Source: Trypanosoma brucei
Taxonomy: Eukaryota
Direction: 5' to 3'
DNA: 64,000 nucleotides
NCBI GenBank assembly: GCA_000002445.1
Contig: CH464491.1
Span: 160,001-224,000, forward strand
Below, one piece after another: positions 809-25,050 of the stretch. The notes under the pieces were generated by a model that saw nothing but the letters and a program-made list of their open reading frames with translations, searched no databases and had not been told where the DNA came from. Made by a program: the position numbers and the translations under genes. The stretch's first letter is position 1; each line of letters begins with the position of its first letter.

Positions 809-1015
809 AACTGGACAGAAAAAGAAAAGAAGAATTATTAGAGACTGTGGGAAAAATCGAGGAGTCACGTAAAGCGCGGCGAAAACACATACTCGAGAAA
901 GAAACAGATGTAGGTAAGTGTATGCACACACGTACGCGTGCCTGTGAGTACAACACGAAAAAATTGTCAAGAGGGAAATGTGTGTTCGATAAACAATCGC
1001 GAAACTCTTTGCTCT

Positions 1016-3878: not shown

Positions 3879-5396
3879 CTACTGACCTAACCGGCGACCG
3901 GCCATTATACCGTCCAGTGAAGTGGACGAAGGTTGTGGAAAGCCACTGTTCTGACCAGCGAACTGTGCGATTTGTTGTTCCATCGTATTCAGTTGGGTCA
4001 CGCCGGTGCCCATATTGTCGAAAGGTGCATAACCCTGGGGAGCGCCCATTCCCATGCCCACAGCAGAGTGTGGAGCGCCACTGGACCACATGCCCGACTG
4101 TGCGGTCGGCATCGCTTGCGACAAAGGTGGTGATTGAGTCTGTTGAGCTGTTGGCGGCATATTGTACCATCCTCCACCGGAAGGGACACCGGCCGGTTGT
4201 TGCAAGGGTGCGGCTAAAGGCTGAGAATTAGCGTACGGGAATTGAGTCTGTGACGGCTGCTGGGGCCACTGCTGCTGTTGTTGCTGGGGCCACTGCTGCT
4301 GTTGTTGGGGCCACTGCTGCTGTTGTTGGGGCCACTGCTGGTGAGTTTGCAGCTGCTGGGCATTGTTGCTTGTAAAACCTCCAAATGGATCTACCGAGGC
4401 TGCCTGCTGTTGGGCAGGCATAGAGAACGCGCTAGGAGGCGCTGTGGCAGTTACTGGTACCGCGGGAGCTGACGCAAAAAGGTCATCCAGCATGTCGTGC
4501 CTAGGCTCTGCCTTTGGATGGGCCTCAACTGCATTGGAAGAAATATTATCTTCTGGTGGCGCCGTTGCCTTGATTTCAGAGGGCGCTGCACCCACGCCAC
4601 CAAACGCCCGACGTCTTTCCTCCTCCTCAAGTCGCTTCGCTAGCTCCATGTCGGCTTTTTCGGATGCCTCTTTTGCCGCGTTGCTGCGCCTTTCGAGTCC
4701 AAGCATACGCTGTGCCTCAGAAACAGTTATGCCGGCGCGGCGCTCCTCCTCACATTGCATGCGGGCGGCGAGCTCTCTATCCTCCTGTTCTTGCTGTTCC
4801 CGTGAAATTGTATAACTTGTAGTGGAGGCATGCTGAAATGTGTTTGAAGGTTGTGTGGCATTCGAACCCCCTTGGAATTGCGAAGAACCAAATCCACCAT
4901 ACATGTTGCTGCCAATGGACTCACCACTCAATTTGGCCCGTGTTGCTGCAGCTTTGTAACGCTCATCGCGCAACGTGGCAGGATCGCTGAGAAGGTCGAA
5001 GAGCTTCTTGGCACGCTCCCTCACAGAAAGACCGTGGTCCGCTCCTTGCTTTCCCGTATAGTAAAATGTCTGGGAGATGTGCTGCAAAGTGGGGAGTATC
5101 GAGCAAAGGGGAGGGAGTCCAACCTCAGGAACATTTCGCGCCAGGTGATCCAGAAGTAGAAGAGCTTTGTAGCAGGGTCTCCAAGACTTGTCGCGATTCT
5201 TCAAACGAAGCTTGATCTCCTCCATAATTTTTACAGTACCAGCTTGGAAGACACGACAAACATTGTCCATTTGCTCACCAGTCGGACCCCAAGGGTCCTC
5301 ATTTGTCGCTTCATGAACAAGTCGTGCATATTCGTTACCGCTGGTTTTCATACGAAGCATCTCTTTTGCCGCGTGGAGAGAAGTCGGAAATGACAT
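3879..5396 (-). CDS. Epsin-related ENTH-domain protein (EpsinR-like clathrin adaptor) with a Gln-rich C-terminal repeat region.
   Basis: The first ATG is at 5396 (MSFPTSLHAAKEM...); the track start at 5429 is a TTG. The N-terminus carries the ENTH signature: VHEATNEDPWGPTGEQMDNVCRVFQ resembles the epsin motif ATSNDPWGPS, and ...KALLLLDHLARNV follows. The C-terminus is low-complexity and Q/P-rich with a WPQQQQQ tandem repeat and NPF/DxF-like motifs. Confidence 0.8.
   Translation of the reverse strand: MSFPTSLHAAKEMLRMKTSGNEYARLVHEATNEDPWGPTGEQMDNVCRVFQAGTVKIMEEIKLRLKNRDKSWRPCYKALLLLDHLARNVPEVGLPPLCSILPTLQHISQTFYYTGKQGADHGLSVRERAKKLFDLLSDPATLRDERYKAAATRAKLSGESIGSNMYGGFGSSQFQGGSNATQPSNTFQHASTTSYTISREQQEQEDRELAARMQCEEERRAGITVSEAQRMLGLERRSNAAKEASEKADMELAKRLEEEERRRAFGGVGAAPSEIKATAPPEDNISSNAVEAHPKAEPRHDMLDDLFASAPAVPVTATAPPSAFSMPAQQQAASVDPFGGFTSNNAQQLQTHQQWPQQQQQWPQQQQQWPQQQQQQWPQQPSQTQFPYANSQPLAAPLQQPAGVPSGGGWYNMPPTAQQTQSPPLSQAMPTAQSGMWSSGAPHSAVGMGMGAPQGYAPFDNMGTGVTQLNTMEQQIAQFAGQNSGFPQPSSTSLDGIMAGRRLGQ
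4259..4345 (-). repeat. In-frame tandem repeat of about 21 nt (GGGGCCACTGCTGCTGTTGTT)x4. It encodes (Q)5-6WP repeats inside the epsin-like gene.
   Basis: Direct repetition of ggggccactgctgctgttgtt is visible at 4262-4340. The minus-strand translation shows QQWPQQQQQWPQQQQQWPQQQQQQWPQQ. Confidence 0.8.
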
Positions 5397-8829: not shown

Positions 8830-9897
8830 TCACTTAGCACCCTTAAACGGCGCCTCGAGAGAGGATACTCCGTAGCGTACCAGGTTCGCCATCAGCTCAG
8901 AAGAAACAAAGGCACAGACTTTCTTATCGCCGCTCGGAAAAAAGGACGGCTCACTACCTTTGGAGTCGTGGTCAAGGGCAGTTTCGTCGAAGGCGACCCC
9001 CACAGGATCACAATGACCAACACTGGATGAGGTCATGGACTCGCGTGCATGCCAAAGATTTAGCATTTCCGGCCCGGACGGGGCAGTGCAAATGTCAAAG
9101 GGTGTTATATTACTTCGTTTCCCTGGGGGATAATTACATACAGGGGGTCTACGAGTATTTTCATTTGAGGCGTGCTCTAAGATAATTCCCTGCACTCTTT
9201 GATTCAGAAGCGTCCACGGTTTTACCCACCGTGACAACATTGGAGGGCCTTTTGGCCTAGACTGTTTGTATCTTTGTTTCGGTTCGTCTCCATCAACGCC
9301 AAAAACCCGACCCGTTGCAGCCACGCCAGATTTATCATCGGTCGGTGCTCGGCCCATCTTACCGGCCACAGGCCGTGTGCGTTGTTTCTTACGCGCCACA
9401 CTTTGCACATGTCTTTCATCATTCATGCCGCTCTTTAAACGCTTCGGCGTTACTTCCGAACTTTCCTGTCCCGCGAATTTCGCCATCGCGGAACGTCCGA
9501 TGTGCTCAAGGTATTGGGCACCTACGTTCGTGTTACGCGATACTACATAACCGATAATCTCTCTCATAAAGATAGCTGGAGAAATTCCATCAAAGTCGTC
9601 CTGGTCATTCACCGCAGCGTTTGCACAGTTCTCCTGCACTCGTAAATCATCAACGGCATCCTCTAGGTCCGGTAGTCCCATCAAGGCTACGCCGCAGAAC
9701 TCAGCGAACTCCATGTTAAATCGCTTCTGAGAGTCAGTCCCCTTTACAAGACTTTGTGCTGATTTCACCACACCCTCAAGCAGTGAATTAATAGACACCA
9801 ATCTGGGGTCCGTCGATCCTTGCAGGGCCCTAACAAGGCGGCAGGTGTCCCCTAAGCTCTTCACAGTAGAGGTGCCATATTCAACTTTATCCCCCAT
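8830..9897 (-). CDS. Conserved hypothetical protein of 355 aa.
   Basis: The start at 9897 is an ATG (MGDKVEYGTSTVKSL...). The frame is uninterrupted and co-oriented with the cluster. It has a basic middle region, and I recognise no domain. Confidence 0.55.
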   Translation of the reverse strand: MGDKVEYGTSTVKSLGDTCRLVRALQGSTDPRLVSINSLLEGVVKSAQSLVKGTDSQKRFNMEFAEFCGVALMGLPDLEDAVDDLRVQENCANAAVNDQDDFDGISPAIFMREIIGYVVSRNTNVGAQYLEHIGRSAMAKFAGQESSEVTPKRLKSGMNDERHVQSVARKKQRTRPVAGKMGRAPTDDKSGVAATGRVFGVDGDEPKQRYKQSRPKGPPMLSRWVKPWTLLNQRVQGIILEHASNENTRRPPVCNYPPGKRSNITPFDICTAPSGPEMLNLWHARESMTSSSVGHCDPVGVAFDETALDHDSKGSEPSFFPSGDKKVCAFVSSELMANLVRYGVSSLEAPFKGAK

Positions 9898-11037: not shown

Positions 11038-12243
11038 CTACACACCAATTACATTATCAATATGACTACGGGCCTCGCGCTGCGCCATGATATCCAGACG
11101 GTAAAATTTCCACTGCACCACCATACAGTAGAAAAAATATGCTGTTTCAAAGCACCACAAAGAAATAACCACTCCAAGGGGTATGAGAAGGTAATTGGAT
11201 TTGCCTTCATACACCTCCATAGCAAGAATCGCGCCACAGGCACCCGTATCTGGCAGTCCAACCAGCATGAATATGGCAAACGCCAGTGCCACCAATAACC
11301 CGCACAAGCTAACCAGATGCCTCGTAGCAAGCCCAGTGATACACGCCTTGTAAATGGGCCAGTGCCATACAAAGAAACTTAGAGGCACACCCAACAAGTA
11401 GGCAATCGACAGAGCAGTTGCCTGTGCCTTGTTCGAGGCCTTTGGGCCCTCAAATTCATTTTCATACGGAGAAAACGCAACTGTGATAGCCACGGACGCG
11501 TTGGCAACAAGCAACACACAGTTCACCATCCAGATCACATAGTTGAACTTCACGTATTTCCTTCTTGGTTCGGGAACCATCCCTATGGTGTGATTAACAA
11601 GGGGTTTGATACACAAAAACTTGGGTGGAAAGTTTGCCTCCAGGTTCGCCCCCTCTGTTGCTTTTAACTGATACTCTACCTGGCGTTGTAGGATATTTAA
11701 CCGCTCTTCTTCTGCCATAGCATTTTTCCACCTCTCAACCAACAGCGCATGTTCTTTCCCATCAACGGTCATACCATTTGTGTTAGTATTGCTCCTTCCC
11801 GTAATCTCCTTCACAATATCGGTTTTGCTCACTTCGGGAAGCTGGGCCGCCACTCCACCGGCGGTCACGTTCAAACCATCGCCGTCACCACCGGACACGC
11901 CCTGGTTCGAGGCGACGGCCGACGGGGGTGGATGCGACGGTATCTCTGTTGTGCTCAAGGCAGACCCCTCAGGGTAAAATGATGACGAATGTGCGTCACG
12001 ATACCTCGAGGCTGCGGGCACATCTTCACTTCGCCTACTTCTATGAAGAGACTCGTCGCTTTCAGAAAATACGTTCATTTCCTCCATATTTGTCGGGGTG
12101 TCATGCGAACCCCGAGCTTCTTGCCGTTGGGATTGGTGCGTTCGCGAATCATGATTGCCTGAAGGTGCCTGATCATCCGCATTGCTAGGTCCAAAATTGT
12201 ACTCTTCACGGATTTCATTAGCACCAAATCCCCGACCAAACAT
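11038..12243 (-). CDS. Secretory carrier membrane protein (SCAMP)-like protein.
   Basis: The first ATG is at 12243 (MFGRGFGANE...); the track start is a TTG. The region EANFPPKFLCIKPLVNHTIGMVPEPRRKYVKFNYVIWMVNCVLLV parallels the SCAMP core NNWPPLPxxFPVGPCFYQD...QKTVKLMYYLWMFH. Four hydrophobic helices and a C-terminal tail follow. The N-terminal part is acidic/Ser-rich and cytoplasmic-like. Confidence 0.65.
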   Translation of the reverse strand: MFGRGFGANEIREEYNFGPSNADDQAPSGNHDSRTHQSQRQEARGSHDTPTNMEEMNVFSESDESLHRSRRSEDVPAASRYRDAHSSSFYPEGSALSTTEIPSHPPPSAVASNQGVSGGDGDGLNVTAGGVAAQLPEVSKTDIVKEITGRSNTNTNGMTVDGKEHALLVERWKNAMAEEERLNILQRQVEYQLKATEGANLEANFPPKFLCIKPLVNHTIGMVPEPRRKYVKFNYVIWMVNCVLLVANASVAITVAFSPYENEFEGPKASNKAQATALSIAYLLGVPLSFFVWHWPIYKACITGLATRHLVSLCGLLVALAFAIFMLVGLPDTGACGAILAMEVYEGKSNYLLIPLGVVISLWCFETAYFFYCMVVQWKFYRLDIMAQREARSHIDNVIGV

Positions 12244-13335: not shown

Positions 13336-13608
13336 CTATCCTGACTTGAACAGAAGAATTGCAACCTGTCCAAAGTAAAAGTACAGGAAGCTGTGCGTTT
13401 CGTGCGTGACATAACTGCCAAAGTTACGGCCAACAATACAGTGCCACGTAGGTTGATATTTCTTGTCAAACTCTTTTTTTATGTACGCCGCAATATCCTT
13501 CTCAATGTTGAACTTCTCCAAGGCTTGAAGAGCGACCTCCACTGCATCAGACTGCATGTCCTCTGGCATGTCTGCATTCTTAATAATAGCTTTCCGATCA
13601 GTAGACAT
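13336..13608 (-). CDS. Dynein light chain LC8 (DYNLL).
   Basis: The ATG at 13608 gives [90 protein letters not shown]. This is near-identical to canonical LC8 across its length of 90 aa. Confidence 0.92.
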
Positions 13609-14145: not shown

Positions 14146-14940
14146 TTACCTGAATATAATAAGATTCCTTTCACTATCAACAGACTTCTTCAGCTGCAGC
14201 TTTTCTTGTTCAGCGCTGTGGTCAACCTCAGCACAAGCTGGAACAAAATCCTTCGGTACTTTTAAAACTTTACCTGTTTCGAGCTTTATTTCTTTTGCTG
14301 GGCGTTTCATTTTGTTTTCCCAGTAAAGCTTCTCTTTCCGACGCTTCTCAAGCTCTTTTCGTTTGTTGTTTTCCGGTGGCTGAAAAACGATGGCATCACG
14401 ATCTCCGAAGAATAATTCATGGTAATGGCCGTTCGTTTGCTTCTTGGGGTCAAGCGAGCCGAGTACCGGGTTGTGCGGCATGGGTAGGGGTGTATTCGGA
14501 TCTATTGTGAACCTGATTATTGTACCATGATCACGACGAGGCGAGTGCTCGGTAGAAACCTCCACTCCAGCATCACGCTTCCCATTGGCCTTTCTTTTAG
14601 AAAAGGTAACGACGGCCTTTTTCTTATCAAGAACTTCCCTCATGTCGTCTGGAATCTTAGAGAAAATATGGTCTTCTTCGCGGGAAATATTCTCCAGTAA
14701 AGCAAGAGCATCTGAATGGAGAGAGACACCTTCTTTATCAGAAAGTGTTTTAACAGCACGAGAGACGAATGAAGTTACGTCGTCAATTCTTCTAGCATTT
14801 TCCCTGAATGCGCGTGCAGAAAGGATCCTTCGCATGACGTGTGCAGGGATATCAGCACCTGACGCGACAGCAGGGTCCTCCCCATTTTCATCCGCACTCA
14901 CTGAGCGGTTCATCTCGGGGCGCTCCTCCATCAGTTCCAT
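14146..14940 (-). CDS. Hypothetical protein of about 264 aa, basic and Lys-rich at the C-terminus. It is the first gene of the minus-strand transcription unit downstream of the retroelement.
   Basis: The first ATG is at 14940 (MELMEERPEMNRSV...); the track start at 15042 is a GTG. The frame is uninterrupted to 14146. I recognise no domain. Confidence 0.5.
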   Translation of the reverse strand: MELMEERPEMNRSVSADENGEDPAVASGADIPAHVMRRILSARAFRENARRIDDVTSFVSRAVKTLSDKEGVSLHSDALALLENISREEDHIFSKIPDDMREVLDKKKAVVTFSKRKANGKRDAGVEVSTEHSPRRDHGTIIRFTIDPNTPLPMPHNPVLGSLDPKKQTNGHYHELFFGDRDAIVFQPPENNKRKELEKRRKEKLYWENKMKRPAKEIKLETGKVLKVPKDFVPACAEVDHSAEQEKLQLKKSVDSERNLIIFR

Positions 14941-16731
14941 ACGCAACGATCTTTTCGTTAACCTTTCTCGATTATATTTGAAGTATATCCTCAACCTAAC
15001 CCTAGAATAAATTGGTAAGGCACAAGAGCTGCTTAGGGCCACCGGTCACTCCCGTAACTGCAAGAACAATATACTAATATACACACGTACATGCACGAAC
15101 AAAAAGTTCTGTTGACACTTACAGTTGCTTAAAATACTAAAACCAAAGACTGGGCTCTAAACCCAAATGCACACCGCGCCTTCACATAGAAACGCAACAT
15201 TTTAAGCCGCTGAGCATGAACAAATGATTGTGTCGTCTCAACGACACATGACCGAAGAGGTGCGCAAGGACGTCCAATGACACAACAAAAGAGTGACCAC
15301 CACAATGACAATCGTTGGGCGGCGCGTTTAATTGCATTACAACTACGTCGGTACCTTCGCACTAACCATACATTTTAGTTCAAGCCAGAGAGATAACCGT
15401 GTAAAAGAAAATTTCCGTCCTTTTTCGTGACAAACGAGAGAAAACAGCCAAAGGCAACGACTTTACAGGGGAAAGGACAGGCGCTGACGAGACCAACAAC
15501 ACCTAGACATTATGCAGTACCACCGCTGGGTCCTGGTAGCACCCTGTAACCCAACCCTAGCCTCACATGAACTGTCTAAAGCACAAAAGAACGCGGACGT
15601 CACCAGTTCCAACATTAAAAGGCTATACAATAGGCTTTCAGTGATCTATTCCTATCACTTGTTTGTCTCTCTTGCTCATCCGTGGGGGAGGGGGGAACAG
15701 ACACCAATACACACCTTTCAGTCGCTATCGCGAGTCGGACTCAATTCTGCCGCTATCGTGCATGGTTAAAAGTCCCCCTGTTGTCCAAATCCCAATCGGG
15801 TTTCACGATTTCGTTGACACTGCGGCGCCGGAGGTGCAATATCTATTACACAAAGTAACGTCCCCTCCGCATCAGACTCATTCTGCGGTTATCTCATACC
15901 ACTTTTTCGCTCTAAGTCTTCGTTATTTTTTTTTATACTAGCTCTTCTTCTTTCCGTCTTTCTCCCTTTCGCGGGTGTGTGAGAGTAACTCACTGTACAT
16001 GGCCTTTCGTGTGCGATCGTTGCGGATAGTGCTCACGTTCCCAACCCCTTACACAGGGCTAAGAAAGCGCGATGCAAGTGGAGAGCGAGTGCGGGATTGG
16101 TGACACCCCTGTGCCGCGAGGAGAAGCTATGCAGGCTTTCGCGAAGTCGCATACATCGTACGATCGGCCCCTTTACAAAACATTGTACACGAGAGTGTTC
16201 GAACCAGCAGCGGTTCAGTAAGTGTTACAACGTTTCCTTCCATTCGTTGCGCCGGCTTATGCCTTCGAGTGTCGCGTGGAAGCGTTGGCCCCTTCACTAT
16301 CAAGTGCACGCTTGATCCGATTGCACGGTGTGGCGCGCACACCGGGCACACCGCCGCTGCCGCGGGCGCCCTCTCGGCACACGAAGTCCATCGGTGCCAG
16401 CTTCCTGCGCTGGAGCCTAAATCCCTTCCCACTGCCATATGCTCCGCAGCGCCCTCCGGAACAACCCCCTTGACTAAACACTCTCTGGCATATACTGAAT
16501 TATGCATCATGATCCACAAGTCTTTCCTCGACTTGACTATAACGCTTGATCACTCCGAGGGGCTGGATAATCACAACAGTTCCGCCCCCACCTTGTACAG
16601 TATCACGTTTCAGCTTCTTTTGTAAGGTGACTGGAGGGTGCACACCGAAGTTGGGCAGGCAGAGGTTGCGTTGGCACTGCCTCTGCTTACGGTTTTTTTC
16701 CAGGGGAAACAATTCACCGTTAGTCCGTATC

Positions 16732-17131
16732 TTTTTTTTTTAATTCCCATCACAACACCATGTCGAGCAGCGGGTGCCAGCGCCTACGCCGTGTATAGCC
16801 CGTACGTTTCGTGCTAATCTCTTTCCTTGAGATAGCCCGGCGCAGTTCCACTGAATCCCGCGCGACGACGGGCTGGGATTCTCTTCCACATCACCGGACA
16901 GCAGCATCTTAGTGCGGATGATACTGCTGATGACACGCTGGCACGTGCCCAGGAACCGATAAATGAAAAACGGTGTCCCAGCATAACGCTGCTGATCCCT
17001 GTGCTGTATGATGCCGTAGCCGGAGCACAGCAGTGTTCCCCATGAAAGGAATACTGCTGGCTCTTGGCTTCCCCCGATGATACGGGATACTGGACCCTGG
17101 CACCACGTTGAGGTGGCCGGCATCACCAGGG
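16732..17131 (-). mobile_element. RIME-like short non-autonomous ingi derivative of 400 bp. It has the Pr77 hallmark, about 320 nt shared with the ingi 5' end including a degenerate 2A-coding start, a 70-nt unique tail and an A10 tail.
   Basis: The minus-strand read from 17131 is CCCTGGTGATGCCGGCCACCTCAACGTGGTGCCAGGGTCCAGTATCCCGTATCATCGGGGGAAGCCAAGAGCCAGCAG, the ingi/L1Tc/RIME Pr77 signature. Its next roughly 240 nt are near-identical to 20743-20960 of the adjacent element. It ends ...GGGAATT(A)10 at 16732-16741. The track ORF 16740..17162 (-) carries MLLSGDVEENPSPSS. Confidence 0.7.
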
Positions 17132-20100
17132 CGTACGTTTCGTACGAGTCGACCCCGTACATTGAACCCTGTGATGTAGATGCGATATTGGAATACTCCT
17201 CGTTTTTGGCTGATCTACCTTGAGTGAGTCGGCACGCACACTGCCAGCTGTGAGTTCTCGGTTGGAAAAAGATCCTGGAAATGCATACGAAATTCGGGGA
17301 ATCGCCGCATACTGATGTTCATGGTGCATCCGCAGAAACAAATCCGTGCTTGCTCACCTTCCATATTTCCGGACTTGATTGACACCAGCCACGAGCTCTG
17401 CATTCACGCCATCTCGTTGTAATGCCAGCGTGTGTCAGAGTGTTTTTCACTGCCGTAATGTTCGTACTGATTGGTGGAGCTTGTGGCCATGTAAACCGAT
17501 CTTTGTTCGGGTTAGCCTCTCAGGCACAGCGGTGTTACTCGCGGGTTGATATTTCGCAGCAACCATTCACAATGCAAGGAGACGGCGATGCGCAAGCTCT
17601 CTTCCACCGTTCGCCAAGTGCCTCCTCTCGCGTCACGCCGCTGGAAGTGAATACGAACTGCAGCCCAATGCTCGCTTTCCTGCTTTCTATCTTTAGGACT
17701 GGTCGCCATAGCTCTCGTGCAGGCGGTTCGATAGCACTCAATGAGCCATTTGCTAGCGCAGTGGGGAGAGACGGCGAGTTGTTGAAAATCGACAGTTTCC
17801 TCATCGTTTTCTCCCGCATGGAGAGGTTCTTTAGTACACTCCGCGCACCAAGCTCCAGAACAATGCATTCCGCTCTGTAACTGCATGAGAGTTTCCCTGC
17901 TCCTGTCTTGGGTGCACAAATCAGCGTGTTGTTTCTATAGAGCAGGGCAGCTGCCCCGGACTTCTCACCGAGGGACACGGATCCATCAGTCCACAATTCG
18001 TAGTGCTCTCGTCGCGGTGGCTCCTTCCCCCTCCGTGCAAAATGCCGTGCAATCCACTTTTCGGAAGCCTCCCTTTTGACATCGTCAGGGTCATCAGCGC
18101 ACACAGGCTTTATCTGCGTGTGAAATATCGGTCGGCAGCTGTGGTGAAGCGTCGATGTCTCTAGTGGGTGCTCGCGTGGCTCAATGTGGAGGTGGGGGTA
18201 GAACCGCATGATGCGGGAATGTAAGACTCTGACTGGATGTTTGCTGTGGTATACTTCCTCAGCACTGCGCCGCAAACATCCGCCTCGTGACTCACACATC
18301 AGCATGAATTTCATGCTGCGCACAAGAGTGGCCGTCTTGAGTGGCAGGAGGTTTGCTTCCAGCAGAGAGTCCTCTTTGCGCGTCCCATGCTGTATGCCGG
18401 CTGTGATGCGACTGGCTTTGTGTTGTGCTGCTGCAAGGAGGTCGCGACTTCGTTTTGAAGCGTCCCAGTACCATACCTCAATGCCATGCATGGTGTGTGC
18501 CTGTACGAGTGCTAGATAAAAAGCTCTCAGCACTTGTCGTCTTGGCCCCCATGTAGAAGCTGAGATGGCTGCTATCTGCAGTAGTCGGAAGTCCATCTTG
18601 CGTCTCGTTTCGGCCGCATGTGTTGCCATCCCCTGCAGACTCTGGAATGTTACTCCAAGAAGCTTTAGTGTCCTGTCAGCTCCTATTCTTTTGCCGTCGA
18701 GTTGTAATGTAAGGGAGTGCCGCTCTATACACCCGAAGAGTGTGCACTTTGTTTTCGCTACGTTGACAGACATGAAGTACTCTTTTGACCACTGTAACAC
18801 CACGTTTAGACCGCATTGTAGTGTGTGGTTGATGACATCCCTCTCTGTGTGCCTCGCAAGTATCGTTAGGTCGTCTGCAAAGAATCCGTGCTGCAGTAAC
18901 GGCACTTCTGCAAGGCGTTGGCTCAACGAGTTCATGACAATAATGAACATGATTGGGCCAAGGACAGTTCCTTGTGGCACTCCTCGCTCAAATGTTCTGC
19001 TTCTGGAAAGCTTCTCCTTGAATCTCACTCTGCCAGTTCGGTTACTCAGAAATGATACGCACCACTTCACAATGTGGGGTGATACCTTCATTCTGTGCAT
19101 TTCCCTCGCAATTTTGTCGTGGTCTACTGTATCAAATGCCTTCTCGTAGTCAACGAATACAGCACCCGTACGAGATTGGTGCGTGGGGCGGCAGAGGGCA
19201 GCGCGGACGTGCAGGAGTTGTTCGAGCGTTGAGCATCCGGGGCGAAAGCCTGATTGCTGCGGCGTCAGCTGGGACTCAACAGTGTCTCTAAGTCTCGCGG
19301 CAATTATGCGCTCCATGACTTTGCAGAGACAGCTCGTGAGCGTCACAGGCCTGTAAGAATCGAGGTCCTCCGCCTTTTTTCCGGCCTTCAGGATGGGGAT
19401 GATAACACCAGTCTTCCATGCAGGCGGCACGACTCCCGTTCGTAGGCTCTCATTGAATAGCCTCAGAACAACATTCAGCGCTGTTCTACCGAGATGTTGC
19501 AGTGCCTCGTTGTATAAGCAATCAGGTCCGGCTGCGGATCCACTCGGTAGCAGTTTGATCGATCTCCGTAGTTCAGCCATCGTGATGGGACTGAACTCAC
19601 TCGCTATCGTCTTTATTGGTGCCGGTGGGTGTGAGTCGGTGTGCCTTCTTGCGCGGGACGAGTACAGTTTAATGAACCTCTCAGCTTGACGGTAGTCCGT
19701 GATGGCCGCGTTATCAACAAGTACAGCCGGTGTGGTTAGTGGTCGTGGCGCATATACCTTCTTGAAAATGTGCCAACTGCAGCGGTCTGACACCGCAAGT
19801 CTGGAGTATAGCGTGCTCCATCTCTTCTTTGTGATACGGTCCAGGATCTGCTTACGCGTGGCTACCAACTTTTCCCCTCGGTGGGAGGGTCCGCATCCAG
19901 CGATCTCTTCATCGAGTTTCGCGAGCTCAGGTGTCCAATGTGGTGACGTTGCTCTGCAGCCACGGGGGACGGAGACCTTCGTCGCAATGCGGATGGCGGA
20001 GCTCAATTTCTGTTCCAGGGTGTTGACGTTCTTCTTTCTACCAATTTTCCTGCAGTACTCGTCAACCTTCAGACGGAAATTCCTCCAGTCAGCTTTTAGC

Positions 20101-20965
20101 CATGCGTACATGGGCTTTCGAGGCCGCGGGCAGCTCAGCGCATCTGTGTCGTCTCCAACGATAACATCGAAAAATATGTGATGGTGATCGCTATTGGGAG
20201 AATGAAGCGATGTCCACGTGTACACTGTGCAATTCCTTGACAGTGTCACATCAGGGGTGGACTCCCCGTGGTGGCGCGCGTTCCTGGTGCACTCACCAGT
20301 GTTGCAGACCAGAAACTGGTTGTCAATGCGCCACTGTGTGAGGGTTTCACCCTTGGTATTTGGTGGGCTCGCGCGATCCGATGCCAACGCGTGTGCGTTA
20401 GCGTCTGCACCGATGAGCTGTGAACTTTCAGTCGTCAGAAGCGTATCTAGGTCAGTTGCCGTGAAGGTGTGTTTTGGTGGGATGTATGCCGACGTGACAG
20501 TCAGCGCCGTTCCACGTGCAAGGTGAATTGTTGCATGCACTTGTTCAATGCGACCAATAACATGCATACCGGTCTCGACTGGTAGGTCCTCCCTCACTAG
20601 TATTGATACACCACCTCCTTTGCAGTTACGAGCTATTCCGTGATGTTGGTAGCCAGCAACGCTAAAGCAAGCCGCCTCTCCAGGCGTCATCCTTGTCTCG
20701 CTCAACAGACAAAAGGCGATCCGCTCATCAACAAGGGTTTTGTGGAGTGCTAATCTCTTTCCTTGAGATAGCCCGGCGCAGTTACACTGAATCCCGCGCA
20801 ACGACGGGCCGGGATTCTCTTCCACATCACTGGACAGCAGCATCTTAGTGCGGATGATACTGCTGATGGCACGCTGGCACGTGCCCAGGGACCGACAAAT
20901 GAAAAACGGTGTCCCAGCAAGACGCTGCTGATCCCTGTGCTACATGACGCCGTTGCCGGAGCAAA
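17132..20965 (-). mobile_element. ingi/L1Tc-clade non-LTR retrotransposon copy of about 3.8 kb. It is 5'-truncated just inside Pr77 and has no poly(A) of its own before the next element.
   Basis: The single ORF encodes 2A, AP endonuclease, reverse transcriptase (FADD) and RNase H (WTDGS). Its 5' region is near-identical to the short element at 16812-17040. The conserved Pr77 block is not seen at its 5' end. The 3' boundary is assigned at the point where the Pr77 of the next element starts. Confidence 0.8.
17535..20843 (-). CDS. Retrotransposon polyprotein of 1102 aa. It comprises an N-terminal 2A peptide (DVEENPGP), an apurinic/apyrimidinic endonuclease, a reverse transcriptase and RNase H.
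   Basis: The ATG at 20843 gives MLLSSDVEENPGPSLRGIQCNCAGLSQGKRLAL... RT motifs are present: ...DYEKAFDTV..., GVPQGTVLGPIMF and FFADDLTIL. The RNase H motif is ELWTDGSVSLGEKSGAAALL. There are no internal stops. An overlapping frame at 17512..17919 (-) holds Cys/His-rich remnants, possibly the C-terminal zinc-finger region out of frame. Confidence 0.9.
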   Translation of the reverse strand: MLLSSDVEENPGPSLRGIQCNCAGLSQGKRLALHKTLVDERIAFCLLSETRMTPGEAACFSVAGYQHHGIARNCKGGGVSILVREDLPVETGMHVIGRIEQVHATIHLARGTALTVTSAYIPPKHTFTATDLDTLLTTESSQLIGADANAHALASDRASPPNTKGETLTQWRIDNQFLVCNTGECTRNARHHGESTPDVTLSRNCTVYTWTSLHSPNSDHHHIFFDVIVGDDTDALSCPRPRKPMYAWLKADWRNFRLKVDEYCRKIGRKKNVNTLEQKLSSAIRIATKVSVPRGCRATSPHWTPELAKLDEEIAGCGPSHRGEKLVATRKQILDRITKKRWSTLYSRLAVSDRCSWHIFKKVYAPRPLTTPAVLVDNAAITDYRQAERFIKLYSSRARRHTDSHPPAPIKTIASEFSPITMAELRRSIKLLPSGSAAGPDCLYNEALQHLGRTALNVVLRLFNESLRTGVVPPAWKTGVIIPILKAGKKAEDLDSYRPVTLTSCLCKVMERIIAARLRDTVESQLTPQQSGFRPGCSTLEQLLHVRAALCRPTHQSRTGAVFVDYEKAFDTVDHDKIAREMHRMKVSPHIVKWCVSFLSNRTGRVRFKEKLSRSRTFERGVPQGTVLGPIMFIIVMNSLSQRLAEVPLLQHGFFADDLTILARHTERDVINHTLQCGLNVVLQWSKEYFMSVNVAKTKCTLFGCIERHSLTLQLDGKRIGADRTLKLLGVTFQSLQGMATHAAETRRKMDFRLLQIAAISASTWGPRRQVLRAFYLALVQAHTMHGIEVWYWDASKRSRDLLAAAQHKASRITAGIQHGTRKEDSLLEANLLPLKTATLVRSMKFMLMCESRGGCLRRSAEEVYHSKHPVRVLHSRIMRFYPHLHIEPREHPLETSTLHHSCRPIFHTQIKPVCADDPDDVKREASEKWIARHFARRGKEPPRREHYELWTDGSVSLGEKSGAAALLYRNNTLICAPKTGAGKLSCSYRAECIVLELGARSVLKNLSMREKTMRKLSIFNNSPSLPTALANGSLSAIEPPARELWRPVLKIESRKASIGLQFVFTSSGVTREEALGERWKRACASPSPCIVNGCCEISTRE

Positions 20966-21380
20966 GCACTGCTCCAAACAAGAGGAACAATGACGTTCCG
21001 TCTGTGCAGAAAGCGAGTTTATGGGCCTTGGGGCCGCGGTGGTGTGGGTGATGTTTTCGTTGAATGAAAAGGCCCCGCCGCCTCATTCGCGTTGCGCGGG
21101 AGGAAGATCAAACCACCTCAGATGTGAATGTTTTTGCTTACTGAAATAAAGCTGTGCTGTGCCAGTCTCGGCGTGTCCGGTGTTTGCGCACCTGAAACTC
21201 CCCTTTGTGGTGCAATATCTTCTTTAGGGACTGTTCGAGTATGTCGGGGTTTTCAGGGACAGCGCGAACCTACTGCGCGCGGTGGATTGGGCTCATTTTC
21301 CAAGGCGGAGTGGTGCCGGTTCTTGGATGCACGGCCGGTCCGCAGCTGCGAGTTCGTCAGCGCCAGCCCTTCGGACCTCA

Positions 21381-21390
21381 GGGGGGGGGG
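21381..21390 (+). repeat. G10 homopolymer inside the strand-switch region.
   Basis: cctca gggggggggg aagtt is read directly. Confidence 0.9.
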
Positions 21391-22049
21391 AAGTTAGGGC
21401 CTGTTTCCCTTTCTAAATCCCCTCAACTACTGTTGGTTAAAAGAATGCAGGGAGTAGAACCGGAGGGGGGAAGCGTCGGGTCCGCCCCGCGTGAAAGCGG
21501 CTGGGGCGTACGACAGGCTTCGCGAGCTGGGGGCGGTTGTGTTTCGCGTGGGTCCGTTATATTTACCCCTTCCGTTTGTATCTCCACTAAAGAGAAAGTG
21601 GTGTCCCGATCCACACTGTATTGCTTCGCCGTGTGCAATTGCTGTGCCGCTGGGGAGTGCCTTACGGCGTCGTGGGACCGACGTGGCTCGGGGACTTAAG
21701 GTGCGCCCTTAAACACCGTGGCTGCTGCCTGGTCATGTGTTTATGCTTTGCGATGTGAGGCATTGTGGGGTCGGGCCTTTATGCGGACCCCTGAGGCGTT
21801 AGTATGCTTGTTTCTCTCGATCCTCTCTGTTTGTGCGCGTATGTTTTCCCCCTCCATGTTTTAGGGAGGGCGGTGGATGGGGAGATGTCACTGAACAACG
21901 TAGCTGTTGATTATTGCTGCTATGTTATTTTATTTTCCTAAGGCCACATTGTGGTGCCTAAATACCTGGGTTATCGTCACGCGCATTTATCATTTTTCTA
22001 TTTAGCCTTTATAGCTGATCCTTCTTTCAAATACATTTGCTTGTTCTAG

Positions 22050-22054
<5 letters not shown>

Positions 22055-22110
<56 letters not shown>
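22055..22110. repeat. (TA)n microsatellite of about 28 units.
   Basis: tatata... is read directly from about 22055 to 22110. Confidence 0.95.
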
Positions 22111-22113
<3 letters not shown>

Positions 22114-24484
22114 TGCAAATGGCATCTTGGTGCACTTGTTCCGTTGCCGGGGTGATTATTTTCAGAGCGTATATACACCGCTTGTGGGTGATCGCGGTTT
22201 CAAGCCGGTTTGCTTTTGTTTTTGAGGACATGTATTGGGGGTGTTACCACTTTTTTGTTAATTGATATTGTGCACTTTTTTGTTTCGGTAAAAAGAAAAA
22301 AAATGACAGTGATATTATTTTTTTTTTTCGCTTACCTTCTATACATATATATATACTTGTCGGTGATACGTGTTTGTGTTTGGTGCTGATAATGCTTGCG
22401 CTGGGAGTTTCTTTTGTTGGTGTTTGTTTTCTCTGTAAATAAGATCGGCTTTCATTTCACTAATAGTCCTTGTAATATATCTTTTTTTTCTTTTTTTTCT
22501 AGGGGGCCATTAGTGCATGTAAGGAGCACTCTTAAGGGAACTTTTGTCAGCAGAATAATCAATGGTAAGTGTTGTACTTTGGCCATTGCGAGTGCGCTGG
22601 ACTTTGGGAGCTGGTACTGATACTTCTGTCTTGACGGATTCAAAAAAAAGACAAAAAACTTCACAACTTTTTCCGAAAGAAAGTGAAGTTTATCCTCTCA
22701 AATCAAGTGCGGATCTGTCGCTTTGCACACGCGCTGGTTGACAATAGATCGATGAGTGACATGTCTGATCACCCTGTGGTGCGGGTCTTTATTAATTGTC
22801 TTGCTCTTTATTGATTCATCTGTGCTTTGGCGACGTAGGCGGAGTAGAGGATTGCCAATTCCGTCCTTTGGAATGGTTTACCGTCTTATTTTATTTTGTT
22901 AACCCAGTTGTCTTATGTGTAATCCTTTATCGGCCGGTGCGAGCTGTGGGTGGGATGCCGATCGTTTTTTCTTCTGCAACGGCAGAGAGTAGTGCTGATG
23001 GATATCGGTAAAGGGTGTTTGCTGCGTTGGTGAAGTGAGTATGTCGATGGAAGGGTACGCATATAATTAATATATCTGGTGCTTTTTCTTCTTATTGAGT
23101 AGCTTTTGAGAGCTCGGGACGGTAAAGTTAGTTGCCGCATTAGGTGTATGTTGTTCTGGTTAATTTCTGTTCAGATCCTTACGGTAAGCACGAAACCATT
23201 ACACCTGGTATGCTTTAATCCGTTAATTCAGGCGGTTCCACATTTGGTTCAATCACTGAAATACAGCTGAATTTTTAAATTCTTGTTTTAAAATTACCTC
23301 ACTTAATAAAAGGAAGGAAATGACACATCAAAGTAATGGAAATGCTGCATTGTACACCTGTGGGTGAGCTGATGAAGTAATAAAATATGGACCCGCGCGT
23401 TAAAGCCGTTTGTTTCCATCAGCAATGCCCTCGTGTCGGTTGTTTTCCCTTTTTGTCTTTCCATTATTCCACTGTAAGTAGTTTGCTTGAATTACGGTTT
23501 GATAAAAGGAACTGATTCACCTGGGTGTCTGCCGTAGTCGGAAGGGTGGGCGGAAACGTTGCTGTTTTCTGTGAGGTAGTTAACTCTTTGCTGCTATAAT
23601 CTTTACAATACCGTTTTAAGATGTGTATGTTATTTTTAGGTGTAGTTTCCTGGCATTTTTGTGGACAGATGATGTTTGTCTACGTTTATGGAACCAGTAA
23701 GTAGGAAAAGATGTATGAATTAACAAAAGGTATTTGTGCATCAGTGACTAGCGTTTTTTCCTCGTGTACAGTAATGTCTCTCTGGTACAGTTATTAATTG
23801 TTAGAGCGCGGTGCTGTGATCTCGGGTGTAACAACTGAATCTTTTTTTTGTTTCCTTGCTGAAGTGTATGGCTCTTTCTGGAATAACACATATGTAATTA
23901 TGCCATTGCTTACAGTGGAAGTAGGGGTGGCTAACATAATGATTTGTCCTTTTGATAACACTGTATTGAAGGAAGAATTATCGCTCTTTTAGTTTTCCTG
24001 TTCTTTGTCTGTGGTCTTGTAAGTTGGTGATATTGTGTATTAAGCTTTCAATTTTTCTTTATAATTTGCAGTAGGCAGTTGTCTCTTGCGGTCATTTGGC
24101 CTACGGTATAGGATGTGTTAAGGTGTAGCTCACGTAAGTAAAGTTCATGATCGAATTCTTTTTGATTTTCGTTTTCACACATTTGATCCTTAAAGACTTA
24201 CACATGCCCTCTTTTTCATTATTATTATCTTGTTCATGAGTTGATGCGACATTGGTGGGTAGGGTTAGATGACCTTTTCTCTTTGACGCAATATGTCGCG
24301 GTTGTTACGTTCGCTTAGACACCAACGTCTCTTGTTTGTTATTTATGTATATTTGGGTACAACCGTTTTTCATTCGTTTCCCTTTGTCTTATAGTAACTT
24401 CATATATATATATTAATTTTAACGAGTTTGTATTTTTGTTTTCCTTACAATTATTGTAACCTACCATTCGGTTTATCACCCATA

Positions 24485-24549
24485 CTATTATTACCCTTAT
24501 TTTTCTTTCTTGATATAGACCTTGAGTTCTTCTGCTTTAAATCTACACA
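24485..24549 (+). promoter_or_regulatory. Pyrimidine-rich tract with a downstream AG. It is the probable trans-splicing acceptor region for eIF5A.
   Basis: The sequence ttattacccttatttttctttcttgatatagaccttgagttcttctgctttaaatctacacaATG fits the kinetoplastid poly(Y) plus AG splice-acceptor architecture immediately 5' of the first ATG. Confidence 0.4.
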
Positions 24550-25050
24550 ATGTCTGACGATGAGGGACAGTTTGCCGAAGGCGGAGCGCAGGTGGGCTCT
24601 CTGACGTATCCGATGCAGGCAGGCGCTCTGAAAAAGGGCGGCTACATTTGCATTAATGGACGTCCGTGCAAGGTAATCGATCTTTCAGTGTCAAAAACTG
24701 GAAAACACGGTCATGCAAAGGTGAGCATCGTTGCCCTTGACATTTTCACCGGAAACAAGATGGAAGATCAGGCCCCCTCAACTCACAACGTTGAGGTGCC
24801 CTTCGTGAAAACTGCAACGTACAGCGTACTGGACATTCAGGAAGATCGTGAAGACCCCAGCAAGCCAGCTCACCTTTCGCTCATGGACGATGAGGGTGAG
24901 ACTCGGGATAACCTGGACATGCCTCCCAACGCGGAACTCGCAGGGCAAATCAAGGAACAGTTTGATGCAGGAAAGGACGTTTTGGTCGTTGTTGTTTCTG
25001 CTATGGGAATTGACCAGATTCTCAGTTTCAAGAATGCAGCTGAGCGATAA
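24550..25050 (+). CDS. EIF5A: Eukaryotic translation initiation factor 5A (eIF5A, hypusine-containing).
   Basis: The ORF starts at an ATG and encodes 166 aa. It carries the hypusination loop [12 protein letters not shown] ([13 protein letters not shown]) and the overall eIF5A fold signature (GRPCKVIDL..., C-terminal OB region). Confidence 0.95.

What the first reader, a model, noticed from the sequence alone, without database searches (positions are those of the whole stretch)
14941..24549. Retroelements sit between the divergent transcription start region and the first gene of the minus-strand unit
The first supported minus-strand gene begins at 14940, yet the strand-switch region begins at about 20.97 kb. 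RNA polymerase II leaving the strand-switch region leftward must therefore transcribe the ingi pair in sense before reaching any gene. In T. brucei such read-through produces retroposon transcripts that feed the RNAi/siRNA pathway. A retroelement here could also influence local chromatin at the transcription start.
Basis: inference. Interest (0 to 1): 0.5.

Follow-up and report, generated by a model that had tools for sequence, protein, structure and literature searches.

The report
Dead ingi composite splitting a divergent promoter
A dead, nested ingi retrotransposon of about 5 kb sits in sense orientation between the first leftward gene and the start region shared with eIF5A on Trypanosoma brucei chromosome 11; this is a known kind of arrangement, and the sequence evidence does not show that the polymerase must cross it.

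Summary
The window is T. brucei TREU927 chromosome 11 (v4 coordinate = window + 160000). Between Tb11.50.0001 (ATG 14940, minus) and eIF5A (ATG 24550, plus) lies minus-strand ingi-derived DNA from about 15.65-15.93 kb to 20992.

It is not a pair of ingi elements. Element A is a chimera: ingi nt ~81-3200 at 92-99% identity, fused in register to a degenerate ingi-related tail, with no Pr77 promoter. Element B is a 319-bp ingi 5' fragment nested in that tail. B has an intact Pr77 and is flanked by an exact 12-bp repeat.

T. cruzi and T. theileri have the same divergent gene pair only 1350 and 955 bp apart, with no retroelement. The insertion is therefore lineage-specific.

The claim that Pol II must read through the element is not established. 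All of 21.0-24.5 kb has rightward-type GT-rich composition, and published plus-strand transcripts start at 22444. Leftward-type composition occurs only at 14.85-15.75 kb, left of the element.

I favour initiation left of the composite (about 0.45) over obligatory read-through (about 0.3). Retroelements at strand-switch regions and ingi-derived siRNAs are already published. Interest is low.

The parts
14146..14940 (-). Tb11.50.0001, a conserved hypothetical protein of 264 aa. It is the first gene of the leftward polycistronic unit.
   Evidence: ORF. It is 98% identical to the T. b. gambiense protein. Orthologues are the first leftward gene in T. cruzi and T. theileri. Kolev 2010 Table S14 lists it as the first ORF of the unit, with a poly(A) site at v4 173777 and a detectable transcript.
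14941..15650 (-). Left flank of unique sequence. It contains the 5' UTR and splice-signal region of the first gene and is the only stretch with leftward GT-rich (promoter-type) composition. Its right-hand limit is uncertain, between 15650 and 15925.
   Evidence: Plus-strand G+T is 0.38-0.43 at 14850-15750. Minus-oriented 6-mers of the Wedel GT_416 synthetic promoter number 34-47 per 300 bp here, against 10-28 to the right of the element.
15651..17865 (-). Degenerate ingi-related (DIRE-like) 3' tail of element A, interrupted by element B. The 3' end is predicted between 15.65 and 15.93 kb; an A9 run lies at 15926-15934.
   Evidence: Weak tblastn/tblastx hits are collinear with the ingi C-terminal region. 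After removing B, one HSP (P0001 aa 722-946, E=2e-7) spans the junction. The tail is 41% identical in protein to Tbingi, against 92% just upstream of the break. DNA homology of ingi 4639-4783 to window 16257-16114 has z of about 6 against shuffles.
16801..16812 (.). One copy of the exact 12-bp direct repeat CGTACGTTTCGT flanking element B (a putative target-site duplication).
   Evidence: There are only two exact matches in the 64 kb window, at 16801-16812 and 17132-17143, and 0 are expected by chance.
16813..17131 (-). Element B, a 319-bp fragment equal to ingi nt 1 to about 322. It is nested in the tail of A and has no poly(A) and no RIME 3' half.
   Evidence: It is 93% identical to canonical ingi nt 1-324. 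A direct repeat links it to 20747-20992. The sequence was read directly.
17055..17131 (-). Intact Pr77 hallmark (the first 77 nt) of element B, including CCACC and the CGTG downstream promoter element at +25 to +28. It points toward the first leftward gene, 2.19 kb away.
   Evidence: It contains the only match in the window to CCACCTCAACGTGGTGCCAGGGTCCAGT. It has 5 mismatches in 79 nt against the canonical ingi, and by my own reading of the two sequences 2 mismatches in 77 nt against a recently inserted RIME. The DPE definition comes from PMC4748587.
17132..17143 (.). Second copy of the 12-bp direct repeat flanking element B.
17732..17743 (.). Empty target site (TAGCACTCAATG). In T. b. gambiense and T. 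equiperdum this site holds a 502-bp RIME in the opposite orientation.
17866..20992 (-). Young ingi part of element A, ingi nt ~77/81 to ~3200. It lacks the Pr77 promoter. A sharp identity break lies at about 17865-17930.
   Evidence: Identity is 92-99% per 150-bp block and then falls to 68%, 56% and about 50%. blastn results are. No Pr77-like sequence is found upstream of 20988; the alignment score is below the shuffle mean.
17535..20843 (-). Open reading frame of 1102 aa in element A, with a 2A-like DVEENPGP motif, an AP-endonuclease domain and a reverse-transcriptase domain. It is truncated relative to the 1657-aa ingi protein, and no RNase H or zinc-finger domain is detected.
   Evidence: The 1657-aa reference length is from PMC3447711.
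20993..21900 (+). GC-rich block (54-60% GC) directly abutting the ingi 5' end. It is GT-rich on the plus strand throughout and contains a G10 run at 21381-21390. It is the likely rightward (eIF5A-side) promoter region.
   Evidence: The annotated ORF Tb11.03.0420 (21241-21699) gives no detectable transcript. The first processed plus-strand transcript starts at 22444. GC-rich cores occupy the centre of the orthologous T. cruzi and T. theileri regions.
22444..23192 (+). Published novel transcript Tb11.NT.12 (v4 182444-183192).
   Evidence: Kolev 2010 Table S7. An AG acceptor at 22442-22443 is preceded by a T-rich tract.
23313..24460 (+). Published novel transcript Tb11.NT.13 (v4 183313-184460).
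   Evidence: Kolev 2010 Table S7. An AG lies at 23311-23312.
24550..25050 (+). eIF5A (Tb11.03.0410 / Tb927.11.740), the first gene of the rightward unit.

Best explanation
The interval is the divergent strand-switch region between Tb11.50.0001 and eIF5A on T. brucei chromosome 11. It has been enlarged from an ancestral ~1 kb to 9.6 kb.

About 5 kb of the increase is a dead, nested retroposon composite on the minus strand. Element A is a Pr77-less chimera of a young ingi 5' part (3.1 kb) fused in register to an old degenerate ingi-related tail. Element B is a 319-bp ingi 5' fragment with an intact Pr77, inserted into that tail. These points are shown.

The following is inferred. The composite landed at the point where strand composition flips, between the two oppositely oriented promoter halves of an ancient compact divergent promoter. 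The rightward half (GC-rich block at 21.0-21.9 kb) stayed with eIF5A. The leftward half stayed in the ~0.7-1 kb left flank next to Tb11.50.0001.

On this reading most productive leftward transcription starts left of the composite, possibly supplemented by B's Pr77. The composite acts mainly as a spacer in the gap between the two start regions. It would be transcribed in sense only at low level, by the minority upstream-antisense initiation from the eIF5A-side promoter. It would contribute only marginally to the genome-wide ingi RNA pool that RNAi degrades.
For: Anatomy:
- Identity to canonical ingi and the sharp break are.
- Nesting is shown by the single HSP across the junction after excision and by the exact 12-bp flanking repeat.
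- Pr77 is present only in B.

Lineage-specific insertion into an old, compact divergent region:
- T. cruzi has 1350 bp and T. theileri 955 bp between the orthologous divergent genes, with no ingi hits.
- In both species G+T polarity flips inside a GC-rich core 350-400 bp from the leftward gene.

Position of the composite at the polarity flip:
- Plus-strand G+T is 0.38-0.43 at 14850-15750 and 0.57-0.67 from 21000 to 24600.
- 6-mers of the experimentally active GT_416 promoter are oriented leftward only at 14.85-15.75 kb and rightward from 20.85 kb on.

The right flank is rightward-transcribed: Tb11.NT.12 and NT.13 lie on the plus strand from 22444.

Published framework:
- GT-rich elements on the coding strand drive directional initiation. 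The region between divergent start regions is non-transcribed. Sense:antisense initiation is about 4:1 (PMC5579346).
- Divergent regions of 5-10 kb contain two oppositely oriented directional core promoters (PMC11796357).

No minus-strand novel transcript is listed between the first gene and 22444 in Kolev Table S7.
Against: - No transcription-start, nascent-RNA or chromatin data for this locus could be read with these tools, so the start site is inferred from composition and synteny only.
- Sense-strand G+T richness is a property of whole transcription units, not only of promoters, so the left flank could simply be a 5' leader.
- The left-flank signal is modest: 34-47 hits against a unit background of about 29 per 300 bp.
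- The strongly GC-rich block, which in T. cruzi and T. theileri sits at the centre of the region, lies entirely to the right of the composite in T. brucei. This would fit a single bidirectional core there.
- Kolev 2010 reports bidirectional initiation at all start regions.
- Multi-kb leaders before the first gene are normal in T. brucei; the leader is at least 2.1 kb on the eIF5A side.
- Absence of listed minus-strand transcripts is weak evidence. Repeats map poorly, and entry Tb11.NT.11, which by its number should lie between 163 and 182 kb, is missing from the table.
Confidence: 0.45

Rival explanations
1. Both units start from one bidirectional region to the right of the composite (21.0-22.4 kb). 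Every leftward polymerase therefore transcribes element A and then B in sense, about 5 kb, as a long leader before reaching Tb11.50.0001. The retroposon RNA is removed by RNAi or RNA surveillance.
For: - The only strongly GC-rich block, which is the central feature of the orthologous T. cruzi and T. theileri regions, lies at 21.0-21.9 kb.
- Kolev 2010 finds sense and antisense 5'-triphosphate reads at all divergent start regions.
- A lacks its own promoter, so any A transcript must come from outside the element.
- Both elements are sense to the unit.
- Long leaders with processed non-coding transcripts exist on the other side of the region.
- ingi RNA is a major RNAi substrate.
Against: - No part of 21.0-24.5 kb has leftward GT-rich polarity.
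- Published work favours two directional promoters with a non-transcribed gap between them.
- ingi loci are reported as enriched in H3.V, a termination-associated mark. This would be an odd obligatory leader for a normally expressed gene, scored at 15 abundance units.
- No minus-strand processed transcript is listed over the uniquely mappable 15.0-17.9 kb.
Confidence: 0.3
2. The Pr77 of element B (+1 at 17131) acts as an internal Pol II promoter and supplies a substantial part of leftward transcription. On this model the retroposon fragment has been co-opted as the promoter of the unit, and element A upstream of it is not part of the unit.
For: - B's Pr77 is intact, with CCACC and the CGTG element at +25 to +28. 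By my reading of the sequences it differs at only 2 of 77 positions from a RIME that inserted recently in sister strains.
- It points at the first gene, 2.19 kb away.
- L1Tc Pr77 is a proven Pol II promoter, and published models propose that Pr77 copies in strand-switch regions fire polycistronic units (PMC4748587; PMC3383444).
Against: - Promoter activity has not been shown for ingi or RIME Pr77.
- Pr77 transcripts in T. cruzi are described as unit-length, unspliced element RNAs, not as unit precursors.
- T. cruzi and T. theileri express the orthologous unit without any retroelement, so Pr77 is not needed ancestrally.
- B is 93% identical to canonical ingi and shows no sign of special conservation.
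Confidence: 0.12
3. The composite is packaged as silent, H3.V- or base-J-marked chromatin and acts as an insulator or terminator between the two start regions. It is essentially untranscribed, and its presence sharpens the directionality of the two promoters.
For: - ingi loci are reported as H3.V-enriched siRNA loci.
- The region between divergent start regions is described as non-transcribed.
- The composite sits at the polarity flip.
Against: - There are no locus-specific chromatin data.
- T. cruzi and T. theileri manage with about 1 kb and no element.
- The ingi TALE pull-down found no specific chromatin proteins.
Confidence: 0.08

Closest known systems
Tbingi, RIME and DIRE non-LTR retroposons of T. 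brucei (ingi/L1Tc clade)
   Same: - Element A has the ingi endonuclease and reverse-transcriptase ORF with the 2A-like N-terminus, and is 92-99% identical in DNA to a canonical 5256-bp ingi over 3.1 kb.
- Element B has the Pr77 hallmark and a 12-bp flanking repeat of the size typical of the clade.
- The tail of A is degenerate and non-coding, like a DIRE.
   Different: - A lacks nt 1-80 (Pr77), a recognisable RNase H domain, the zinc-finger region and the RIME 3' half. It is a young/old chimera with a sharp in-register break.
- B is a 5' fragment only, with no 3' half and no poly(A), so it is not a RIME.
Accumulation of L1Tc/NARTc/ingi-type elements in strand-switch regions, and the model that Pr77 fires the polycistronic units (Macias 2016; Sanchez-Luque 2012)
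   Same: A Pr77-bearing retroposon fragment lies in a divergent strand-switch region in the same orientation as the adjacent unit. This is the arrangement those papers describe and speculate about.
   Different: Those statements are genome-wide and mostly concern T. cruzi, and promoter activity of ingi Pr77 is untested. Here the large element has lost Pr77 and only the small nested fragment retains it. The orthologous region in T. cruzi has no element at all.
Divergent Pol II transcription start regions of T. brucei with GT-rich directional promoters (Wedel 2017; Kolev 2010)
   Same: - There are two divergent units, listed as 'Divergent' in Kolev Table S14.
- The size of 9.6 kb is within the usual 5-10 kb.
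- Both flanks are GT-rich on the coding strand.
- Non-coding processed transcripts lie upstream of the first gene on the plus side.
   Different: Half of the region is retroposon DNA lying between the two polarity domains. The histone marks that define a start region could not be examined.
siRNA-producing inverted repeats and retroposons of T. brucei (Tschudi 2012)
   Same: The sequence is ingi-derived. In T. b. gambiense and T. equiperdum the locus also carries an inverted repeat of about 250 bp (95% complementary, about 610-725 bp apart) that would fold into a hairpin if transcribed.
   Different: The window strain (TREU927) lacks the inverted RIME, so it has no in-cis hairpin. The published inverted-repeat loci are 422 bp to 10 kb long, and this locus is not among those I could check.

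Membership tests
ingi (Tbingi) autonomous non-LTR retrotransposon | A single long ORF of about 1657 aa with AP-endonuclease, reverse transcriptase, RNase H and a C-terminal zinc-finger region | tested here: not met
   Element A has a 1102-aa ORF with Exo_endo_phos and RVT_1 domains only. The RNase H and C-terminal part is recognisable only as about 22-41% identical degenerate sequence.
ingi (Tbingi) autonomous non-LTR retrotransposon | High nucleotide identity to canonical ingi over the element body | tested here: met
   Identity is 92-99% over ingi nt ~144-3200 (window 20925-17928). It is not met beyond the break at about 17865-17930.
ingi (Tbingi) autonomous non-LTR retrotransposon | The 77-79-nt Pr77 signature at the 5' end | tested here: not met
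   Homology of A starts at ingi nt 77-81 (20988-20992). Upstream sequence aligns to Pr77 no better than shuffled sequence. Element B does have it.
ingi (Tbingi) autonomous non-LTR retrotransposon | A 3' poly(A) tail and a 12-bp target-site duplication | tested here: inconclusive
   For A, only an A9 run at 15926-15934 was found. By collinearity this is probably the internal A-rich stretch of the 3' region. No flanking duplication was found by eye.
RIME (non-autonomous, about 500 bp) | About 250 bp of the ingi 5' end joined to about 250 bp of the ingi 3' end, with poly(A) and a 12-bp duplication | tested here: not met
   Element B is ingi nt 1 to about 322 only and has no 3' half and no poly(A), although it does have a 12-bp exact flanking repeat. 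By contrast, the insertion in L002 (2712-3213) meets all of these features.
[quoted passage not shown] | Long ingi-related sequence with many stops and frameshifts and no coding capacity | tested here: met
   This applies to the tail of A (about 15.65-17.87 kb). It shows collinear weak protein similarity (E=2e-7) and 41% identity to Tbingi where alignable, with no long ORF. No DIRE reference sequence was available for direct comparison.
Divergent Pol II transcription start region of T. brucei | Two units diverging from the interval, supported by transcript data | tested here: met
   ORF orientation is shown. Kolev 2010 Table S14 lists both units as 'Divergent'. Plus-strand transcripts start from 22444.
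Divergent Pol II transcription start region of T. brucei | Enrichment of H2A.Z, H2B.V and H4K10ac, with Pol II and 5'-triphosphate RNA peaks marking each start | not testable with these tools
   No ChIP-seq or nascent-RNA tracks are available here. Only gene-level tables from Kolev 2010 could be read.
Divergent Pol II transcription start region of T. brucei | GT-rich sequence on the coding strand of each unit | tested here: met
   Minus-strand GT richness is found at 14.85-15.75 kb and plus-strand GT richness at 20.85-24.6 kb. The same flip occurs in the T. cruzi and T. theileri orthologous regions.
Pr77 internal promoter / L1TcRz HDV-like ribozyme | Conserved first 77 nt with CCACC and the CGTG downstream promoter element at +25 to +28 | tested here: met
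   Element B reads CCCTGGTGATGCCGGCCACCTCAACGTGG..., with CGTG at +25 to +28.
Pr77 internal promoter / L1TcRz HDV-like ribozyme | Demonstrated promoter or self-cleavage activity | not testable with these tools
   No data exist for ingi or RIME according to PMC3383444. The Rfam scan of 13-26 kb found no ribozyme family.

The most novel reading that the evidence does not exclude
The ingi insertion physically split an ancient compact bidirectional promoter. The intact Pr77 of the nested 319-bp fragment B (+1 at 17131) has since been co-opted as a working Pol II start for the leftward polycistronic unit. This would be a concrete, testable case of the long-proposed domestication of Pr77 at a strand-switch region. 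In strains carrying the inverted RIME, the same leader would fold into a ~250-bp hairpin that seeds ingi siRNAs in cis.
Probability: 0.1. Interest if true: 0.55.

Novelty: already known. Interest (0 to 1): 0.2.

Why it matters
This changes little in general understanding. Retroposons piling up in trypanosomatid strand-switch regions, ingi RNA feeding RNAi, and the idea that Pr77 might launch polycistronic units are all published. The locus is part of the T. brucei reference genome.

The modest value is local.

First, the region has a clean outgroup comparison. The same gene pair is 1.0-1.35 kb apart and free of retroelements in T. cruzi and T. theileri. A Pr77-less ingi, a Pr77-bearing fragment and a strain-polymorphic inverted RIME all sit within 5 kb of a start region.

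Second, much of the composite (15.0-17.9 kb) is a degenerate tail that no longer matches canonical ingi. This makes it a convenient natural test bed. Existing nascent-RNA and ChIP data could show where a leftward promoter ends up after a 5-kb insertion, and whether ingi Pr77 fires in vivo.

Tried and rejected
- **Two tandem ingi copies (the 'ingi pair').** Rejected. After excising B plus one repeat copy, a single tblastn HSP crosses the junction in one frame, and the hits are collinear in ingi coordinates.
- **A degenerate Pr77 upstream of element A.** Rejected. A local alignment of 20989-21200 to Pr77 scores below the shuffle mean.
- **Element B as a RIME.** Rejected. It has no 3' half and no poly(A). 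A true RIME from L002 was used for comparison.
- **tRNA, snRNA or other RNA genes in the region.** None found by ARAGORN or by Rfam at E<=1. The one hit is the (TA)n repeat scoring as a microRNA, which is chance.
- **T. congolense orthologous locus, the closest outgroup.** The protein was found (P0156) but no contig is on record.
- **Locus-specific start-site or splice-site data.**
  - Kolev 2010 tables gave gene-level and novel-transcript coordinates only.
  - The Nilsson 2010 supplements had no entry for these genes.
  - The Siegel 2010 supplements are not held.
  - Siegel 2009 and Cordon-Obras 2022 are not held.
- **Literature mentions of the neighbouring gene IDs.** Nothing relevant was found.
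- **A target-site duplication for element A.** None was seen by eye. The 3' end of A could only be bracketed to 15.65-15.93 kb.
- **Bacterial-type promoter/terminator scan.** Not run, because it does not apply to trypanosomes.

Full report
**Identity of the window.** Coordinates in the supplementary tables of Kolev et al. 2010 (PMC2936537) match the window exactly if v4 coordinate = window + 160000.
- The dynein light chain Tb11.50.0007 is at v4 173336-173608 and at window 13336-13608.
- Tb11.50.0002 is at v4 171038-172243 and at window 11038-12243.
- The poly(A) site of Tb11.50.0001 is at v4 173777.
- The two novel transcripts Tb11.NT.12 and NT.13 start at v4 182444 and 183313. In the window, AG splice acceptors sit exactly at 22442-22443 and 23311-23312.

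The window is therefore T. brucei TREU927 chromosome 11_01_v4, 160001-224000. eIF5A (24550-25050) is Tb11.03.0410 = Tb927.11.740.

**Check of the observation.** The last leftward gene before the switch is the 264-aa ORF with its ATG at 14940. Kolev Table S14 lists it (Tb11.50.0001) as the first ORF of a 'Divergent' minus-strand unit, and lists eIF5A as the first ORF of the plus-strand unit. Between them are 9609 bp with no tRNA and no Rfam RNA gene. A minus-strand ORF of 1102 aa (17535-20843) has AP-endonuclease and reverse-transcriptase domains. Its closest relatives are T. brucei-group, T. congolense and T. vivax ingi proteins. A 246-nt direct repeat (16811-17056 and 20747-20992, 91%) marks two ingi 5' regions, both on the minus strand.

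**Anatomy: element A.** I extracted a canonical 5256-bp ingi from a T. equiperdum locus (L004:4513-9768) and aligned it to the window.
- Element A matches ingi nt ~81-3200 at 92-99% per 150-bp block (window 20988 to about 17930).
- Identity then falls abruptly to 68%, 56% and about 50%.
- Protein identity to Tbingi is 92% in the 150 aa before the break and 41% after it.
- Further left there are only weak hits, collinear in ingi coordinates, down to 16566. A weak DNA match of ingi 4639-4783 to 16257-16114 has z of about 6 against shuffles.
- By collinearity the 3' end should lie between about 15.65 and 15.93 kb. An A9 run is at 15926-15934.
- A has no Pr77. Its homology starts at ingi nt 77-81, and the upstream 200 bp align to Pr77 no better than shuffled sequence.

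**Anatomy: element B.** Element B (16813-17131) equals ingi nt 1 to about 322 at 93% identity.
- It carries the only Pr77 in the 64 kb, with CCACC and the CGTG downstream promoter element at +25 to +28 (motif from PMC4748587).
- It is flanked by the exact 12-mer CGTACGTTTCGT at 16801-16812 and 17132-17143. These are the only two copies in the window, and none is expected by chance.
- Removing B plus one repeat copy restores a single tblastn HSP (ingi protein aa 722-946, E=2e-7) across the junction.
- The 'pair' is therefore one chimeric ingi/DIRE-like element with a short 5' fragment nested inside its tail.
- How a 5' fragment without poly(A) acquired a clade-typical 12-bp duplication is unexplained.

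**Comparison with other genomes.**
- T. b. gambiense (L001) and T. equiperdum (L002) share the composite. They also carry a 502-bp RIME in the opposite orientation, with a perfect 12-bp duplication (TAACACTCAATG), at the site that is empty in the window (17732-17743).
- That RIME forms an inverted repeat of about 250 bp, 95% complementary, with element B.
- T. cruzi (L008, L010) and T. theileri (L005) have the same divergent pair: the orthologue of Tb11.50.0001 on one strand and eIF5A on the other. Only 1350 and 955 bp separate the coding sequences, and there are no ingi-like hits.
- The switch region is therefore old within Trypanosoma, and the retroposon composite is a later insertion in the T. 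brucei lineage.
- In T. vivax the left-hand synteny is lost and a Tvingi 3' part lies 8.5 kb upstream of eIF5A.
- In Leptomonas the strand switch lies on the other side of eIF5A.

Four lines of evidence bear on it.

1. **Composition.** In the compact T. cruzi and T. theileri regions, plus-strand G+T flips from 0.31-0.37 to 0.57-0.75 inside a GC-rich core 350-400 bp from the leftward gene. In the window the leftward polarity (0.38-0.43) is confined to 14850-15750. From 21000 to 24600 the polarity is rightward throughout (0.53-0.67), including the GC-rich block at 21.0-21.9 kb that abuts the ingi 5' end.
2. **Promoter 6-mers.** 6-mers from the synthetic GT_416 promoter drive directional Pol II initiation in vivo (PMC5579346). 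In leftward orientation they are enriched only at 14.85-15.75 kb (34-47 per 300 bp). In rightward orientation they are enriched from 20.85 kb on (36-81 per 300 bp).
3. **Published transcripts.** Processed plus-strand transcripts occupy 22444-23192 and 23313-24460, so rightward initiation lies left of 22444. The annotated ORF at 21241-21699 gives no transcript. No minus-strand novel transcript is listed between the first gene and 22444.
4. **Current model.** Published work describes two oppositely oriented, directional core promoters per divergent region, a non-transcribed gap between them, and about 4:1 sense to antisense initiation.

Together these favour the view that the composite lies at the polarity flip, between the two promoter halves. 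The leftward start would then lie in the ~0.7-1 kb left flank.

**Counter-arguments.**
- G+T skew marks whole units, not only promoters.
- The left-flank signal is modest.
- The strongest GC-rich block is entirely right of the element.
- Kolev 2010 reports bidirectional initiation.
- Long leaders before the first gene are normal in T. brucei.

I put initiation left of the composite at about 0.45, obligatory read-through at about 0.3, a substantial role for B's Pr77 at about 0.12, and a silent insulator-like state at about 0.08. Some low-level sense transcription of A from upstream-antisense initiation at the eIF5A-side promoter is likely under any model.

**The RNAi and chromatin parts of the interpretation.** It is published that ingi/RHS sequences give 52% of Argonaute-bound small RNAs, with equal sense and antisense reads (PMC3447711). 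ingi transcripts rise when RNAi or RBP33 is lost. ingi loci are among the H3.V-enriched siRNA loci. None of this is specific to this copy. In TREU927 this locus offers only sense RNA, so any double-stranded RNA would need antisense RNA from other copies. In the strains with the inverted RIME a hairpin could form in cis if the region is transcribed.

**Comparison with what is known, and novelty.** Accumulation of ingi/L1Tc-type elements in strand-switch regions has been stated repeatedly, as has the proposal that their Pr77 could fire the adjacent units (PMC4748587, PMC3383444). The same papers note that promoter and ribozyme activity have not been shown for ingi. The finding is therefore an instance of a known pattern in a reference genome. 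The locus-specific details are new but ordinary:
- the chimeric, Pr77-less element A;
- the nested Pr77-bearing fragment B;
- the insertion into an ancestrally ~1-kb divergent region;
- the polymorphic inverted RIME.

Interest is 0.2. The most novel reading not excluded is that B's Pr77 has been co-opted as a start site for the leftward unit (probability about 0.1).

Noticed in passing
window 17732-17743; L002:2700-3225; L001:~4142-4660: A 502-bp RIME with a perfect 12-bp target-site duplication (TAACACTCAATG) is present in T. equiperdum and T. b. gambiense but absent from the window strain, where the site is empty (TAGCACTCAATG). It is in the opposite orientation to elements A and B. It forms an inverted repeat with B of about 250 bp, 95% complementary, about 610-725 bp apart. 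This would be a potential hairpin if transcribed.
   Followed up: partly
window 16801-17143: Element B is a 319-bp ingi 5' fragment flanked by an exact 12-bp direct repeat, but it has no poly(A) and no 3' half. Target-primed reverse transcription normally preserves 3' ends, so the origin of B is unexplained. Possible origins are an internal deletion, a template switch or priming without a tail.
   Followed up: partly
window ~17865-17930: There is a sharp, in-register break in element A, from 92-99% identity to canonical ingi down to about 50-68%. Protein identity drops from 92% to 41%. This suggests gene conversion or recombination between an active ingi and an older resident ingi-related element.
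   Followed up: partly
window 20805-20828 and 16886-16909 (minus strand): The N-terminus of the ingi ORF carries a 2A-like motif, DVEENPGP, in element A. The copy in element B reads DVEENPSP, so the motif is altered there.
   Followed up: no
window 22054-22113; L008:~9812-9868: A (TA)n microsatellite of about 30 units lies upstream of eIF5A in T. brucei. T. cruzi also has a long (TA)n run upstream of its eIF5A, and T. theileri has (AAT)n runs. Rfam scores the T. brucei repeat weakly as a microRNA (E=0.52), which is a chance match.
   Followed up: no
window 21381-21390: A run of ten G on the plus strand lies inside the GC-rich block next to the ingi 5' end, upstream of the first plus-strand transcript.
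   Followed up: no
window 22444-23192 and 23313-24460: Two published processed transcripts (Tb11.NT.12 and Tb11.NT.13) fill the leader between the GC-rich block and eIF5A. Entry Tb11.NT.11, which by its number should lie between v4 163 and 182 kb, is missing from the published table.
   Followed up: partly
L006:3-1483 and L006:2842-5427: In T. vivax the orthologue of Tb11.50.0001 is not within 10 kb upstream of eIF5A. Instead there is the 3' part of a Tvingi on the same strand as eIF5A, followed by two unannotated plus-strand ORFs. This is an independent retroposon-associated rearrangement at the same boundary.
   Followed up: partly
L011:3705-9596: In Leptomonas pyrrhocoris, eIF5A (two copies) is co-directional with the SCAMP-side genes and diverges from the SNF2/PP2C genes. 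The strand switch is therefore on the other side of eIF5A than in Trypanosoma.
   Followed up: no
L005:10001-12750; L010:10001-11234: eIF5A is tandemly duplicated in T. theileri (four copies) and in one T. cruzi assembly (two copies), but is single-copy in the window.
   Followed up: no
L003 (T. equiperdum OVI contig) and L001 (T. b. gambiense): The OVI contig ends 1979 bp upstream of eIF5A, at about window 22575. The gambiense assembly has a 100-N gap and lacks about 1.5 kb inside the ingi. The retroposon composite breaks short-read assemblies, so its structure in those records should not be trusted.
   Followed up: no
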